Virus record (IMG/VR): IMGVR_UViG_2684622619_000009
Strand: one strand, 5' to 3'
Source: a virus
Lineage: Duplodnaviria > Heunggongvirae > Uroviricota > Caudoviricetes
DNA length: 5,837 bases
Part shown: in pieces, positions 73-4,951 of the stretch
Layout: each line of letters opens with the position of its first letter
Position numbering within the stretch: position 1 is the first letter of the stretch
The notes under the pieces: model-generated
Told to the model about the DNA's origin: nothing
Database searches by the model: none
What the model saw: the letters and a program-made list of their open reading frames with translations, nothing else
Program-made: the position numbers and the translations under genes

Positions 73-1128
73 ATGGCTAATGCCTGGCTCAGATTGTGGC
101 ATGACATGCCAAATGACCCCAAGTGGCGAACGATTGCCAGGGTATCAGGACAGCCAATCGCAACAGTGATGGCAGTGTATATCCATCTTCTGGTGAGCGC
201 GTCACGAAATGTCACGACATGTCACGGCGTGTCACTACGTGGTCACATTGATGTCACGACGGAAGATTTAGCAAGTGCGCTTGATGTGACGGAAGACGTA
301 ATTGATTCAATTTTGCATGCAATGCAGGGGCGGGTTCTGGATGGTGACCTTATTTCCGGATGGGAAAAACGTCAGGTGCTGAAAGAGGACAATGGTAACG
401 TTTCGCAAACGGCAAAATCCCCGGCAGAGCGCAAGAGAGCGCAGCGGGAGCGGGAAAAGCTGCGGAAACATAATGCTGATTGTCACGATGAGTCACGACG
501 TGTCACGCATCTGTCACGACAAGTCACGACAGATAAAGATACAGATAAAGATACAGATAAAGATACAGATACAGAATTAAACCCCACACATAACGCGCGC
601 GAGAGTATTCCGACCAGTGAGTCGAATGGTGCGCCGTTGCAGACAGCCGAACCTGAATACCTGGACGGCCTGAGCGAACCGATCGGGAAATTTTCGATGA
701 CTACTGTCTGGCAGCCGTCGCCGGATTTTCGACAACGGGCAGCAGTGTGGGGTATGGCTCTGCCTGAGCCGGAATTTACACCTGCTGAGCTTGCCGCATT
801 CCGGGATTACTGGATGGCGGAGGGGAAGGTTTTCACGCAGGTTCAGTGGGAGCAGAAATTTGCCCGCCACGTGCAGCACGTCAGGGCACAGGTAAAACCA
901 GTCAGCAAGGGGGGAAGCCATGCAGCATCAGGTGGCACGGCATCACGGGCAGTTCAGGAAATCCGGGCTGCACGCGAACAGTGGGAACGTGACAACGGAT
1001 TTATCAGCAACGGAAACGGCCTGGAAGCTGTGGGAGCTCATGGGGGAGGTGTATTCGAACCGCTGGACTCAGAAGAACGGGGCCGCACCTTCGAAGCTCT
1101 GGATTGCCCAGATTGGTGCGATGACTGA
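73..1128 (+). CDS. Phage replication initiator (lambda O-like replisome organizer with DnaT-like C-terminal region)
   Basis: Long ORF (track 67..1128); ATG at 73 sits 6 nt after AAGAGG (61-66), so 73 is preferred over GTG 67. Iteron clusters and an AT-rich repeat lie inside the coding sequence as in lambda O/ori. The C-terminal segment (TTVWQPSPDF...FTPAELAAFRDYWMAEGKVF...WEQKF) resembles DnaT-like domains of phage replication proteins, from memory. Followed directly by a P-like gene. Confidence 0.75.
   Translation: MANAWLRLWHDMPNDPKWRTIARVSGQPIATVMAVYIHLLVSASRNVTTCHGVSLRGHIDVTTEDLASALDVTEDVIDSILHAMQGRVLDGDLISGWEKRQVLKEDNGNVSQTAKSPAERKRAQREREKLRKHNADCHDESRRVTHLSRQVTTDKDTDKDTDKDTDTELNPTHNARESIPTSESNGAPLQTAEPEYLDGLSEPIGKFSMTTVWQPSPDFRQRAAVWGMALPEPEFTPAELAAFRDYWMAEGKVFTQVQWEQKFARHVQHVRAQVKPVSKGGSHAASGGTASRAVQEIRAAREQWERDNGFISNGNGLEAVGAHGGGVFEPLDSEERGRTFEALDCPDWCDD
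201..262. repeat. Iteron cluster A: six GTCAC(G)-core repeats phased at ~10-11 bp
   Basis: GTCAC starts at 201, 211, 221, 231, 242 and 253, all in direct orientation at helical-turn spacing; an inverted GTGAC copy follows at 286-290. Located inside the O-like CDS. Confidence 0.6.
482..530. repeat. Iteron cluster B: five GTCACG repeats phased at ~10-11 bp (putative initiator binding sites of the origin)
   Basis: GTCACG at 482, 492, 502, 513 and 523, directly abutting the AT-rich tandem repeat; this iterons-then-AT-rich layout matches lambda-type origins. Confidence 0.6.
531..575. repeat. 12-bp tandem repeat AGATAAAGATAC x3 plus partial copy (AT-rich, putative DNA unwinding element)
   Basis: Perfect copies at 531-542, 543-554 and 555-566, then AGATAC AGA. 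Encodes a (DKDT)n linker in the O-like protein. Confidence 0.7.
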
Positions 1129-3521: not shown

Positions 3522-4079
3522 ATGAGCACTATTACCAGAGAACGCGCGGAGATTAAATCATACATCACAGGCTTCCTGAGCGACTCGGCGCACGATAACA
3601 AGTCTTCAGACAGCCTGCTGGCTAATGTGTTTCGTATCGCGCTGGCATCACTGGAAGCAGAGCCGATAGCAATGGTAGTGCCTGATGAAATGGATTTGCT
3701 TACCTGCCATCTCGACGGTGTAACTAAAACATATGCTGATGGCTGGAACGCCTGCCGCGTCGCCATGCTTCAGGCCGGAAACTTTCGGGAAAATAAGAAT
3801 TCGTCAACCAACAATTTTCGGGAAATCTCGGAAACGTCAACCAGATCTCCGATAACTCTGGATGGCTGGATAAGCTGTACTGAGCGAATGCCTGAAAAGA
3901 GCCAGAACGTGCTTATTTCGATGAATATCGATAGCGAGGCTGGGCCATTAATATATTCCGCACGCTATCTCGGAGGCACGTTCCGGCGCGGAGGTATAGC
4001 AGTTAGTCCGGGTAATGATCTTAGGCAAGCAACCCACTGGATGTCGCTACCAGAACCGCCGCAGGAGGTGAATCAATGA
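3522..4079 (+). CDS. DUF551-like prophage protein (185 aa)
   Basis: ATG 3522 is 8 nt after AAGGA (3509-3513). The C-terminal ~70 aa (DGWISCTERMPE...ATHWMSLPEPPQ) matches my recollection of the DUF551 signature (W-I-s...LPe start, THWMPLPEPP end). Not verified by search. Confidence 0.7.
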   Translation: MSTITRERAEIKSYITGFLSDSAHDNKSSDSLLANVFRIALASLEAEPIAMVVPDEMDLLTCHLDGVTKTYADGWNACRVAMLQAGNFRENKNSSTNNFREISETSTRSPITLDGWISCTERMPEKSQNVLISMNIDSEAGPLIYSARYLGGTFRRGGIAVSPGNDLRQATHWMSLPEPPQEVNQ

Positions 4080-4159
4080 CCTGGCCTGAAGCATTCACAA
4101 CGGTAGGAATTGCGATGGCGGTGGCGCTGGTGGTGTATTCGATTTGCCGCTGGGGATAA
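4076..4159 (+). CDS. Small hydrophobic peptide (27 aa), translationally coupled to the DUF551-like gene; absent from the supplied ORF track
   Basis: ATG 4076 overlaps the upstream TGA (ATGA) and lies 7 nt after GGAGG (4064-4068). Product MTWPEAFTTVGIAMAVALVVYSICRWG is a single predicted transmembrane helix. Stop TAA 4157-4159. Confidence 0.4.
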   Translation: MTWPEAFTTVGIAMAVALVVYSICRWG

Positions 4160-4165
4160 AAACGG

Positions 4166-4194
4166 TTTGCGGGAAAAGGATAGTTAAGTAGAAT
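4166..4194 (+). promoter_or_regulatory. Putative sigma70 promoter of the hok mRNA
   Basis: -35-like TTTGCG/TTGCGG (4166-4172), 16-17 bp spacer, -10 TAGAAT (4189-4194); the predicted transcript start near 4201 coincides with the conserved hok 5' leader sequence. Confidence 0.4.
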
Positions 4195-4198
4195 TGCT

Positions 4199-4226
4199 GC
4201 GGGTGCTTGAGGCTATCTGCCTCGGG
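4199..4226 (+). promoter_or_regulatory. hok mRNA 5' leader: stem-loop GAGGC-TATCT-GCCTC and the 5' partner of the fold-back pairing
   Basis: GCGGGTGCTTGAGG (4199-4212) is complementary to CCTCAACGCACCCGC (4492-4506) with one bulge; hairpin at 4209-4223. The layout resembles the 5' end of plasmid R1 hok mRNA as I recall it. Confidence 0.5.
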
Positions 4227-4243
4227 CATGAACACCAACGGCA

Positions 4244-4319
4244 NNNNNNNNNNNNNNNNNNNNNNNNNNNNNNNNNNNNNNNNNNNNNNNNNNNNNNNNN
4301 NNNNNNNNNNNNNNNNNNN
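4244..4319. other. Run of 76 N (masked or unresolved sequence) inside the hok locus
   Basis: Directly visible. It interrupts the hok leader and hides the start of the hok reading frame. Confidence 0.99.
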
Positions 4320-4442
4320 ATCGTCATCTGTTTAACCGTCATAGTGACGGCACTGGTAACGAGGAAAGACCTCTGCGAGGTGCGAATCCGAACCGGTCAG
4401 ACGGAGGTCGCTGTCTTCGTAGACTACGAATCTGAGAAGTAA
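4287..4442 (+). CDS. hok: Hok/Gef family type I toxin (HokC/HokD-like); N-terminal ~11 codons fall inside the N-run
   Basis: Visible translation 4320..4439 is IVICLTVIVTALVTRKDLCEVRIRTGQTEVAVFVDYESEK, stop TAA 4440-4442. It closely matches the Hok/Gef core as I recall HokC/HokD (…ALVTRKDLCEV.IRTGQTEVAVF…). Start 4287 is inferred from a ~51-aa family length and assumes the N-run length is accurate. Confidence 0.8.
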   Translation, partial: XXXXXXXXXXXIVICLTVIVTALVTRKDLCEVRIRTGQTEVAVFVDYESEK

Positions 4443-4449
4443 GAGACCA

Positions 4450-4506
4450 GGCGGGGGAGTAATCTCCCGCCACCTCTGATGTGTCAGGCATCCTCAACGC
4501 ACCCGC
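4450..4506 (+). promoter_or_regulatory. hok mRNA 3' structured region: post-stop hairpin and fold-back-inhibition (fbi) element
   Basis: Hairpin GGCGGGGGAG-TAAT-CTCCCGCC (4450-4471) with no U-tract; 4492-4506 pairs with the 5' leader at 4199-4212. Confidence 0.5.
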
Positions 4507-4561
4507 GCTTTACCATACTGAAAATGCTGTTTGAATGTTCATCTCTGAAAGAGGACTATGA

Positions 4562-4906
4562 ATGAAAAAGGTATTGATTGCAGCACTTATTTCCGGTGTG
4601 TCTTTTGGCGCTTTTGCACAGCAGGGTGGTTTCCAGGGGCCAGAAGCAGAGCGTTCAACAGTAGCGCAGGCAAAAGAACTGAAGGATGATGCATGGGTTA
4701 TCCTTGAAGGGAGCATCGTTAAAAAAGTGGGTGATGAACGTTATGAGTTTCGTGACAATAGCGGGACAATTGTCACGGATATTGATGACAGCGTATGGGC
4801 CGGGCAGAATGTTTCTCCGAAAGACAAAGTAAGAATTGAGGGTGAAATTGATAAAGACCTGAGCAGTGTTGAAGTTGATGTAAAGGCACTGAAATTATTA
4901 AAGTAA
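4562..4906 (+). CDS. YgiW/YdeI (BOF, bacterial OB-fold) family periplasmic protein with N-terminal signal peptide
   Basis: ATG 4562 is 5 nt after GAGGAC (4551-4556). Signal peptide MKKVLIAALISGVSFGAFA, then QGGFQGP and the pattern DDAWV.L.G.IV...Y.F.D.SGTI..DID...W.G..V.PKD.V.I.GE.DKD..SVE.DVK, which fits E. coli/Salmonella YgiW(VisP)/YdeI from memory. Product is 114 aa. Confidence 0.85.
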   Translation: MKKVLIAALISGVSFGAFAQQGGFQGPEAERSTVAQAKELKDDAWVILEGSIVKKVGDERYEFRDNSGTIVTDIDDSVWAGQNVSPKDKVRIEGEIDKDLSSVEVDVKALKLLK

Positions 4907-4922
4907 CCGCCCCTGCTTGTTA

Positions 4923-4951
4923 AGCCCGTCTTACTGACGGGTTTTCTGTTT
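4923..4951 (+). terminator. Rho-independent terminator downstream of the YgiW-family gene
   Basis: Stem CCCGTC (4925-4930), loop TTACT, stem GACGGG (4936-4941), followed by TTTTCTGTTT (4942-4951). Confidence 0.6.

What the first reader, a model, noticed from the sequence alone, without database searches (positions are those of the whole stretch)
4244..4319. N-run masks exactly the part of the hok locus expected to hold the mok/hok starts and the Sok antisense RNA
In characterised hok/sok loci the antisense Sok RNA and its promoter overlap the mok/hok translation initiation region, ~50-130 nt into the mRNA. With the 5' end predicted near 4201, that region coincides with the 76 Ns. The antitoxin therefore cannot be assessed from this window, and whether the locus is functional or a sok-less remnant (as in several chromosomal hok copies) is undetermined. 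The N-run length may also not reflect the true gap size, so the hok start coordinate is an estimate.
Basis: inference. Interest (0 to 1): 0.5.

Follow-up and report, generated by a model that had tools for sequence, protein, structure and literature searches.

The report
Masked core of hokW/sokW toxin-antitoxin locus
The run of 76 Ns is a non-biological placeholder hiding about 159 bases, the regulatory core (Sok antisense RNA, its promoter, and the mok and hok starts) of the already characterised hokW-sokW toxin-antitoxin locus of E. coli O157 lambdoid prophages, so the finding is correct but ordinary.

Summary
The N-run is real: window 4244..4319, 76 N, the only Ns in the window. The other 5,761 bases are 100% identical to a lambdoid prophage segment in E. 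coli O157:H7 genomes. In every such genome listed the two flanks lie 159 nt apart, not 76. No relative examined has a spacing near 76 nt; observed spacings are 134-160 nt.

By position, the 159-nt fill holds these parts:
- the 3' arm of the 5' tac hairpin and the ucb box
- the whole 71-nt Sok gene on the minus strand, with a 14-nt single-stranded 5' tail, a long terminator hairpin and UUUU
- the Sok promoter, TTGCCT-17 nt-TAACCT
- the mok SD and AUG, inside a hypervariable target hairpin
- the hok SD, the hok AUG and hok codons 1-11

The locus differs at 3 of 421 positions from hokW/mokW/sokW of Stx2 phage 933W, which is annotated. The Sp5 copy is experimentally shown to be a type I toxin-antitoxin (Takada 2021).

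The question it left open resolves towards an intact locus with Sok, not a sok-less remnant. The system is already known and of low interest. Why the Ns are there (mask or scaffold gap) is unresolved. The source's own hidden bases were inferred, not read.

The parts
4189..4194 (+). Likely -10 element of the hok promoter (TAGAAT).
   Evidence: It aligns with the TATAAT of K-12 hokC and, offset by one base, with the TATGAT of the R1-type hok. The strict consensus scan did not call it, because the -35 is weak. This assignment is an inference from homology.
4200..4212 (+). The 5' end of the hok mRNA and the tac element (CGGGUGCUUGAGG). +1 is about 4201-4202.
   Evidence: The Rfam RF01794 hit starts at L001 5302, which equals window 4201. 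In the full-length fold, bases 1-12 pair with the 3' fbi. Alignment to R1's GGCGCUUGAGG supports this, with R1 numbering taken from PMC9841398.
4211..4243 (+). The 5' arm, the loop and the first 4 nt of the 3' arm of the 5' hairpin (GGCUAUCUGCC...GGCA). The rest of the 3' arm (GAUAG) lies under the Ns.
   Evidence: Seen in the folds. The sequence is conserved in K-12 hokC and in R1.
4244..4319 (.). N-run of 76 N, a placeholder for 159 nt. In relatives this is L001 5345..5503, equal to L124 10244..10402.

On the plus strand the hidden bases hold:
- the rest of the 5' hairpin
- ucb (GCCCC)
- mok SD (GAGG) and mok AUG (fill positions 70-72)
- hok SD (AAGGAG, fill 112-117)
- hok AUG (fill 127-129) and hok codons 1-11 (MKQQKAMLIAL)

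On the minus strand they hold:
- the Sok RNA (fill 78 to 8, 71 nt)
- its -10 TAACCT (fill 90 to 85)
- its -35 TTGCCT (fill 113 to 108)
   Evidence: From. The -10 element is the one mutated in the promoter-less construct of PMC8621323 (primers YO-421 and YO-422).
4320..4442 (+). Visible part of the hok (and in-frame mok) coding sequence: Hok codons 12-51 plus the stop.
   Evidence: Pfam HOK_GEF scores 74 bits on these 40 aa alone and 81 bits on the reconstituted 51 aa. RefSeq annotates a 'Hok/Gef family protein' here.
4450..4471 (+). 3' UTR stem-loop (GGCGGGGGAGUAAUCUCCCGCC). It is positionally equivalent to the last stem-loop of the processed (truncated) hok mRNA.
   Evidence: Seen in the folds. 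The positional equivalence to the R1 Tr-hok 3' stem-loop (PMC9841398) is an inference.
4492..4506 (+). fbi element (CCUCAACGCACCCGC), which pairs with tac.
   Evidence: The full-length fold closes 5' bases 1-12 onto bases 375-387. The z-score is -8.1 against shuffles.
4562..4906 (+). BOF/YgiW-family gene directly downstream. It takes the place of the terminator that follows fbi in most related hok loci.
   Evidence: Pfam BOF scores 115 bits. Of 106 related loci, 23 have this arrangement and 70 have a terminator right after fbi.
4922..4944 (+). First terminator-like hairpin downstream of hok. It is a possible 3' end of a hok-BOF transcript.
   Evidence: From the consensus scan. It is a consensus match only, and the function is inferred.

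Best explanation
The 76 Ns are not biological sequence. They are a placeholder, either a deliberate mask or a scaffold gap, for about 159 nt that form the regulatory core of an intact hok/mok/sok type I toxin-antitoxin locus. This is the hokW-sokW allele carried in the early-right (nin) region of a lambdoid prophage of E. coli O157:H7-type strains.

Mechanism, taken from the R1 hok/sok paradigm and the hokW-sokW study:
1. A weak promoter (about 4166..4194) makes a stable hok mRNA starting near 4201.
2. Its 5' tac pairs with the 3' fbi (4492..4506).
3. Its mok SD is sequestered by ucb, so the full-length RNA is neither translated nor bound by Sok.
4. Slow 3' trimming opens the structure.
5. mok, here a 70-codon in-frame extension of hok, must be translated for hok to be translated.
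6. The unstable 71-nt Sok RNA is made from its own promoter on the minus strand inside the masked stretch. It pairs through its single-stranded 5' tail with the mok start hairpin, blocks mok and hence hok translation, and triggers duplex cleavage.
7. When Sok supply stops, the 51-aa Hok peptide is made and damages the inner membrane. In the Sp5 prophage this happens after RecA-dependent induction.

Shown here:
- the size and content of the fill in identical relatives
- the positions of all the elements
- the tac-fbi and ucb-SD pairing in the predicted full-length fold
- family membership by Pfam and Rfam

Shown by others: toxicity of HokW, antitoxin activity of sokW, and its dependence on the TAACCT -10 element (PMC8621323).

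Inferred: that the source of this window holds the same 159 nt, and the processing and open-conformation steps.
For: Identity and spacing of the flanks:
- All 5,761 non-N bases are identical to L124, where the flanks are 159 nt apart.
- All 40 listed 100% matches show the same +83-nt span.
- 506 records match the flanks at >=99% and 506 match flanks plus fill at >=99%.
- Among 121 IMG/VR loci with the exact 33-nt left flank, fills are 134-159 nt.
- In a spread sample of 60 E. coli records, two-piece matches imply fills of 136-160 nt.
- There were 0 hits for a 61-91-nt spacing in viral contigs and 0 for 76 nt in metagenome contigs.

Identity of the locus:
- It differs at 3 of 421 positions from phage 933W, where sokW, mokW and hokW are annotated.
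- The annotated 5' end of K-12 sokC aligns to the same base.
- Rfam RF01794 scores 113.5 bits against a gathering cut-off of 59 on the unmasked relative.
- Pfam HOK_GEF scores 74-81 bits.

RNA structure:
- The Sok fold gives a 14-nt free 5' tail, a long hairpin and UUUU, with z = -5.0.
- The full-length mRNA fold shows tac-fbi and ucb-mok SD pairing, with z = -8.1.

Experiments on the Sp5 hokW-sokW locus (PMC8621323):
- The -10 mutation primers map exactly onto TAACCT.
- The Northern probes lie in the fill.
Against: - The hidden bases of this particular source were never seen, so the content is inferred from identical flanks.
- The source contig was not found. The left flank is absent from genome contigs, and none of the retrieved viral loci is the source.
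- Why 159 nt would be written as 76 N is unexplained.
- The Sok promoter (TTGCCT/TAACCT, 7 of 12 matches), the hok promoter and the Sok terminator all fail the strict consensus scans. Their assignment rests on homology and on the published mutant.
- The MFE fold of a 3'-truncated mRNA did not reproduce the tac/ucb 'open' structure.
- This subtype lacks the terminator right after fbi, so the 3' end of its full-length mRNA is uncertain.
Confidence: 0.93

Rival explanations
1. The N-run is length-faithful. The source carries a genuine 76-nt stretch, that is an 83-nt deletion in the hok leader. This would remove Sok and/or its promoter or the mok start and leave a sok-less or dead hok remnant.
For: Only the nominal length of the N-run. 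Sok-less hok remnants do exist, for example K-12-type hokD, which matches only the right flank.
Against: - No relative has such a spacing: there were 0 hits for a 61-91-nt gap in 2.9 million viral contigs and 0 for 76 nt in the metagenome records.
- All listed records with identical flanks have 159 nt.
- The counts are 506 against 506 records.
- The known sok-less remnants lack the left flank (tac and the 5' hairpin) altogether, whereas the window has it.
- Caveat: it is not known whether the scans would match literal Ns in a stored contig.
Confidence: 0.03
2. The N-run is a scaffold join between unrelated contigs, so the left part (hok promoter and tac) and the right part (hok coding sequence and fbi) do not belong to one locus.
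For: - hok loci are multi-copy in these genomes (median 2, up to 9-12 places per genome), which can break short-read assemblies.
- The understated gap size would fit a scaffolder's estimate.
Against: - Both flanks are contiguous, in the same order and orientation, with one 159-nt fill in at least 360 complete genomes over the whole 5.8-kb window.
- The 5' tac on the left flank is complementary to the fbi on the right flank.
- A scaffold gap within one true locus remains possible and is compatible with the best explanation.
Confidence: 0.02
3. The locus is complete in sequence but functionally silent in this prophage, like several chromosomal hok loci of E. coli K-12. On this view it is a decaying passenger and not an active toxin-antitoxin.
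For: - Its promoter hexamers are weak by consensus.
- The canonical terminator after fbi is missing and is replaced by a BOF gene, which could disturb 3'-end-dependent activation.
- The host prophage in some strains is degraded. In L001 there is an IS1203 element and a truncated integrase.
Against: - The nearly identical Sp5 copy (3 differences in 421 nt, none in the ORFs, the Sok tail or the promoters) has the same BOF arrangement.
- That copy makes detectable hokW mRNA and sokW RNA, and produces HokW after induction.
- Its deletion changes lysis timing and phage yield (PMC8621323).
- All the regulatory elements are intact.
Confidence: 0.1

Closest known systems
hokW-mokW-sokW of Stx2 phages 933W and Sakai prophage 5 (GenBank AF125520 annotation; Takada et al. 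2021, PMC8621323)
   Same: - Over the 421-nt locus, 418 positions are identical.
- The 51-aa Hok, the 70-codon in-frame mok, the Sok tail and the Sok promoter are all identical.
- The downstream BOF gene is the same.
- The position is the same: the nin region of a lambdoid prophage, co-oriented with the early-right operon.
   Different: - There are three point differences: one upstream of the hok -10, one in the Sok terminator loop, and one at the base of the 3' UTR hairpin.
- The host prophage is different. The region upstream of the DUF551 gene does not match 933W: the query matches only from position 136 at 96.8% identity, with an extra ~390 nt in 933W.
- The replication module is also different.
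hokC(gef)/mokC/sokC of E. coli K-12
   Same: - Mean column identity in the alignment is 81%.
- The architecture is the same.
- mok is in frame with hok.
- The annotated SokC 5' end aligns to the same base, and both start GUUCAGCAU.
- The Rfam family is the same, at 118 bits.
   Different: - SokC has an 18-nt shorter terminator hairpin.
- The target hairpin sequence differs.
- From established knowledge (Pedersen & Gerdes 1999), the K-12 locus is disrupted downstream by IS186. The IS186A feature is seen.
- It is chromosomal, not on a prophage.
hok/mok/sok (parB) of plasmid R1, the founding member
   Same: - The order and spacing of elements match. R1 has the mok AUG at about +116 and the hok AUG at about +174 (PMC9841398); here they are at +113 and +170.
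- Both have a 70-codon mok.
- Conserved blocks are GCUUGAGGCU-UCUGCCUC, AGCCCC, GAGGC...AUG...AGCCUCUUAC and GCAAGGAGAAG.
- Both match Rfam RF01794.
- HokW and Hok share 44% identity (PMC8621323).
   Different: - In R1 mok is out of frame with hok; here it is in frame and shares the stop codon.
- R1 has its own terminator after fbi; here a BOF gene intervenes.
- The role differs: plasmid post-segregational killing against assisting prophage-induced lysis.
   Same: The Hok coding region is about 92-93% identical. The setting is a lambdoid prophage.
   Different: K-12-type hokD matches only the right flank, query 227-371. It has no tac, no leader and no Sok region. The window has the full left flank, and its relatives have the full leader.

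Membership tests
hok/sok type I toxin-antitoxin (Hok/Gef, Pfam PF01848; Rfam RF01794) | A hydrophobic Hok/Gef toxin ORF of about 50 aa. | tested here: met
   The window's visible 40 aa score 74 bits on HOK_GEF against a cut-off of 22. The reconstituted 51 aa score 81 bits.
hok/sok type I toxin-antitoxin (Hok/Gef, Pfam PF01848; Rfam RF01794) | A cis-encoded antisense Sok RNA (about 60-70 nt) overlapping the mok translation-initiation region, with a single-stranded 5' tail plus a terminator hairpin. | tested here: met
   This was tested on identical relatives only, because the region is masked in the window.
- The position is homologous to the annotated sokW and sokC.
- The fold has a 14-nt tail, a hairpin and UUUU, with z = -5.0.
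- Rfam scores 113.5 bits on the relative and finds nothing in the masked window.
hok/sok type I toxin-antitoxin (Hok/Gef, Pfam PF01848; Rfam RF01794) | An own promoter for Sok on the opposite strand, inside the mok/hok start region. | tested here: inconclusive
   The consensus scan finds no promoter. However, TTGCCT-17-TAACCT lies at the positions of R1's TTGCGC/TATCCT. Mutating exactly this TAACCT abolished antitoxin activity in Sp5 (PMC8621323, primers YO-421 and YO-422).
hok/sok type I toxin-antitoxin (Hok/Gef, Pfam PF01848; Rfam RF01794) | A mok leader ORF that overlaps hok, starts within the Sok target and has its own SD. | tested here: met
   In relatives the AUG is at +113, GAGG lies 8 nt upstream, and the ORF is 70 codons in frame with hok. 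In the window the feature is masked.
hok/sok type I toxin-antitoxin (Hok/Gef, Pfam PF01848; Rfam RF01794) | Long-range tac/fbi pairing that closes the full-length mRNA, and a ucb that sequesters the mok SD. | tested here: met
   In the MFE fold, bases 1-12 pair with 375-387 and GCCCC (55-59) pairs with GAGG (101-104), with z = -8.1. Both tac and fbi are visible in the window itself (4200..4212 and 4492..4506).
hok/sok type I toxin-antitoxin (Hok/Gef, Pfam PF01848; Rfam RF01794) | 3' processing to a truncated mRNA that refolds (tac/ucb) into a form that is translatable and binds Sok. | tested here: inconclusive
   The MFE fold of a 3'-truncated RNA gives the tac-proximal hairpin, not the tac/ucb stem. 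Takada et al. saw smaller hokW RNAs of unassigned identity. This needs 3' end mapping.
hok/sok type I toxin-antitoxin (Hok/Gef, Pfam PF01848; Rfam RF01794) | The toxin kills or arrests cells, and the antisense RNA neutralises it. | not testable with these tools
   Shown experimentally for the near-identical Sp5 hokW-sokW locus (PMC8621323), not for this source.

The most novel reading that the evidence does not exclude
The hidden bases of this particular source might not be the consensus 159 nt. They could be a genuinely shortened leader of about 76 nt that has lost Sok or its promoter while keeping the hok promoter, tac, the coding sequence and fbi. That would be a naturally antitoxin-less yet otherwise intact prophage hok.

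A second reading lies outside the N-run and is not excluded. In this hokW subtype the terminator after fbi is replaced by a BOF/YgiW gene. The 'full-length' hok mRNA could then be a hok-BOF transcript of about 750 nt, with 3'-end activation different from R1.
Probability: 0.03. Interest if true: 0.35.

Novelty: already known. Interest (0 to 1): 0.08.

Why it matters
It matters little for biology. hokW-sokW was annotated in phage 933W in 1999 and characterised experimentally in 2021. Related sequence occurs in most complete E. coli genomes searched here (4,709 of 5,426 match the 159-nt core).

The practical points are about annotation:
- An N-run in a multi-copy type I toxin-antitoxin locus can hide the entire antitoxin, so a window-only reading would wrongly score the locus as toxin-only.
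- The N-run length should not be used to place the hok start. The ATG lies 33 nt upstream of window 4320, in a stretch that is really 159 nt long.
- RefSeq annotates only the Hok CDS in these genomes, and the Rfam 'sok' model is oriented on the hok-sense strand. Automated pipelines will therefore not report Sok correctly here either.

Tried and rejected
- **Finding the source contig.** The exact 33-nt left flank is absent from genome contigs. It is present in more than 120 viral contigs, but none of those retrieved is the source and none has an N-run there. Patterns demanding a 76-nt or 61-91-nt spacing found nothing in viral or metagenome contigs. It is not known whether these scans would match literal Ns.
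- **Consensus scans.** The promoter and terminator scans of the unmasked locus found nothing. The Sok and hok promoters and the Sok terminator deviate from the scan's rules, so they were assigned by homology and from the published mutant instead.
- **RNAalifold on 30 distinct leaders**. Covariation counts were uninformative, because the MAFFT alignment of the hypervariable hairpin is unreliable. I replaced this with per-variant folding: 16 variants all form the same hairpin.
- **Fold of a 3'-truncated mRNA.** The MFE fold did not reproduce the published open tac/ucb conformation.
- **N-run as a collapsed exact repeat.** I considered whether the N-run boundaries mark a collapsed exact repeat, which would mean an assembly gap. 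The sequences just outside the Ns are also shared among copies, and the centre of the fill is the most variable part. The boundaries therefore do not coincide with repeat edges, and the result is inconclusive.
- **Chance Rfam hits.** sR2, ceN48 and CsrC all scored far below their gathering scores and were dismissed.

Full report
**Observation.** The window contains a single run of Ns, at 4244..4319, 76 bases long.
- To its right, 4320..4442 reads IVICLTVIVTALVTRKDLCEVRIRTGQTEVAVFVDYESEK plus a stop codon. On its own this fragment scores 74 bits on Pfam HOK_GEF, against a cut-off of 22.
- To its left, 4200..4243 reads CGGGTGCTTGAGGCTATCTGCCTCGGGCATGAACACCAACGGCA, the conserved 5' end of hok-family mRNAs.

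**What the Ns stand for.** The 5,761 non-N bases are 100% identical to a segment of E. coli O157:H7-type chromosomes.
- In every listed match the segment spans 5,920 bases, not 5,837.
- In L124 (strain 28RC1) the left part matches at 6001 and the right part at 10403, with exactly 159 nt between them. L001 (strain PV15-279) has the same 159 nt.
- The link between flanks and fill is tight. 506 records match the 150-nt flanks at >=99%, and 506 match the flanks plus the 159-nt fill at >=99%.
- Among 121 IMG/VR loci carrying the exact 33-nt left flank, the distance to the right flank is 134-159 nt.
- In a spread sample of 60 of 5,022 E. coli records, the two-piece matches imply 136-160 nt.
- Scans that demanded a 61-91-nt spacing (viral contigs) or a 76-nt spacing (viral and metagenome contigs) found nothing.

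The N-run is therefore 83 nt too short and is a placeholder, not a measure. I could not find the source contig. I also cannot say whether the Ns are a deliberate mask or a scaffold gap. Multi-copy hok loci (median 2, up to 9-12 places per genome) are a plausible cause of an assembly break, but the N boundaries do not coincide with repeat edges.

**Content of the hidden 159 nt.** The locus differs at 3 of 421 positions from phage 933W (AF125520), whose record annotates sokW (antisense misc_RNA, 71 nt), mokW and hokW. I transferred those coordinates and numbered the hok mRNA from window 4201.

| Element | Position in hok mRNA | Note |
|---|---|---|
| Sok RNA | +121 to +51, minus strand | 71 nt |
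| mok AUG | +113 | preceded by GAGG |
| Sok -10 (TAACCT) | complement of +133..+128 | |
| Sok -35 (TTGCCT) | complement of +156..+151 | 17-nt spacer |
| hok SD (AAGGAG) | +155..+160 | |
| hok AUG | +170 | |
| first visible base after the Ns | | first base of hok codon 12 |

All of these lie under the Ns.

The annotated 5' end of K-12 sokC aligns to the same base, and both RNAs begin GUUCAGCAU. The Sok sequence folds into a 14-nt free 5' tail, a long hairpin and UUUU (-30 kcal/mol, z = -5.0).

The strict consensus scans call neither the promoter nor the terminator. Two things support the promoter assignment. The hexamers sit where R1's TTGCGC/TATCCT sit. In Takada et al. 2021 (PMC8621323), the 'pro-less' primers YO-421 and YO-422 change TAGGTTA to CCGGCTC on the plus strand. 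That change hits exactly this TAACCT, and it abolishes protection from HokW. Their Northern probes for sokW and hokW also lie within the fill.

**Integrity of the rest of the locus.** In the predicted full-length mRNA (z = -8.1), bases 1-12 (tac, window 4201..4212) pair with 375-387, a range covering fbi (window 4492..4506). GCCCC (ucb) sequesters the mok SD, as in the R1 model summarised in PMC9841398.

The geometry matches R1: the mok AUG is at +113 against about +116, the hok AUG at +170 against about +174, and mok has 70 codons. One difference is that mok here is in frame with hok, as in K-12 mokC/hokC.

Rfam RF01794 scores 113.5 bits on the unmasked relative and nothing on the masked window. 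This model is oriented on the hok-sense strand, so its strand does not indicate the Sok strand.

The open, truncated conformation was not reproduced by MFE folding. That step remains inferred.

**Mechanism and role.** The best-supported reading is a canonical hok/mok/sok type I toxin-antitoxin.
- The hok mRNA is stable and folded shut.
- It is activated slowly from its 3' end.
- hok translation is coupled to mok translation.
- Unstable Sok pairs with the mok start hairpin to block translation and induce cleavage.

For the near-identical Sp5 copy, HokW is toxic and sokW neutralises it, partly dependent on RNase III and Hfq. sokW disappears after RecA-dependent induction, HokW appears about 1 h before the endolysin, and deletion halves phage yield (PMC8621323).

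In the window, hok is co-oriented with all the early-right genes: the O-like and P replication genes, then DUF551, hok, BOF, DUF968 and RusA. My own untested inference is that, on induction, pR-driven read-through would run head-on into the Sok promoter. That could contribute to the unexplained loss of sokW.

**Rivals.**
- A true 76-nt leader (a sok-less deletion) is not supported by any relative. The known sok-less remnant type, K-12 hokD, lacks the left flank entirely.
- A mis-join of unrelated contigs is excluded, because the flanks are contiguous in at least 360 complete genomes.
- A complete but silent locus is possible but unlikely, given the Sp5 experiments.

**Comparison and novelty.** This is an allele of hokW/mokW/sokW, which is known, annotated and experimentally characterised. 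It sits in a different lambdoid prophage backbone from 933W/Sp5. It meets the sequence-testable defining features of the hok/sok family. Two features are inconclusive by computation alone: the Sok promoter by consensus, and the truncated-mRNA refolding. I rate the novelty as already known and the interest as low.

**Noted in passing.**
- This subtype lacks the intrinsic terminator that follows fbi in about two thirds of related loci. It carries a BOF/YgiW gene with its own terminator-like hairpin instead.
- The Sok target hairpin is hypervariable: 16 variants all keep the same fold.
- A 27-aa hydrophobic ORF sits just upstream of the hok promoter.
- There are iteron-like repeats in the O-like gene.

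Noticed in passing
window 4492..4944 (fbi, BOF gene 4562..4906, hairpin 4922..4944): In 70 of 106 related IMG/VR hok loci, an intrinsic terminator (CCCGCTTCGGCGGGTTTTT) follows fbi directly. The 23 window-type/933W-type loci lack it. They carry a BOF/YgiW-family gene followed by a different terminator-like hairpin, so the hok transcript may read through into BOF as an RNA of about 750 nt.
   Followed up: partly
masked stretch; L001 5402..5439 (A3 columns ~104-142): The hairpin that holds the mok SD and AUG and pairs with the Sok 5' tail is hypervariable. There are 16 distinct sequences among 58 distinct loci, and all fold into the same hairpin (-7.8 to -13.6 kcal/mol). This suggests copy-specific Sok-target recognition among co-resident prophage copies.
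   Followed up: partly
L001 5302..5476; L123 502..654; L125 282..453: The Rfam RF01794 'sok' model matches the hok-sense strand, from tac to the hok AUG. In K-12 it hits the strand opposite to the annotated sokC. A hit therefore marks the hok leader, not the Sok strand.
   Followed up: yes
L001 and L124 annotation tables: RefSeq/PGAP annotates only 'Hok/Gef family protein' at this locus in O157 genomes. There is no mok CDS and no sok ncRNA, unlike the 933W GenBank record and K-12.
   Followed up: yes
window 4076..4159 (+): An unannotated 27-codon hydrophobic ORF (MTWPEAFTTVGIAMAVALVVYSICRWG). Its ATG overlaps the stop of the DUF551 gene (ATGA), and it ends about 30 nt before the hok -10. It has no Pfam match.
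   Followed up: no
window 201..246, 482..530 and 529..575 (+): Tandem 10-nt repeats (GTCACGACRT) occur at two places, and a 12-nt unit repeated 3.9 times encodes DKDT repeats. All lie inside the O-like (DnaT-like) replication gene. They look like iterons, so this may be the prophage origin.
   Followed up: no
one search hits H114-H137 (K-12-like genomes): Many E. coli genomes match only the right flank (query 227-371, annotated hokD).
   Followed up: partly
H91, NZ_CP124455.1 2868539..2869244: One hokD-type locus spans 706 nt in three pieces where about 455 nt are expected. This suggests an insertion inside a hok locus.
   Followed up: no
L001 1979..3767: In strain PV15-279 the same prophage region lies next to rspAB and is degraded. 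It has an IS1203 insertion and a truncated integrase, and the replication module present in the window is missing there.
   Followed up: no
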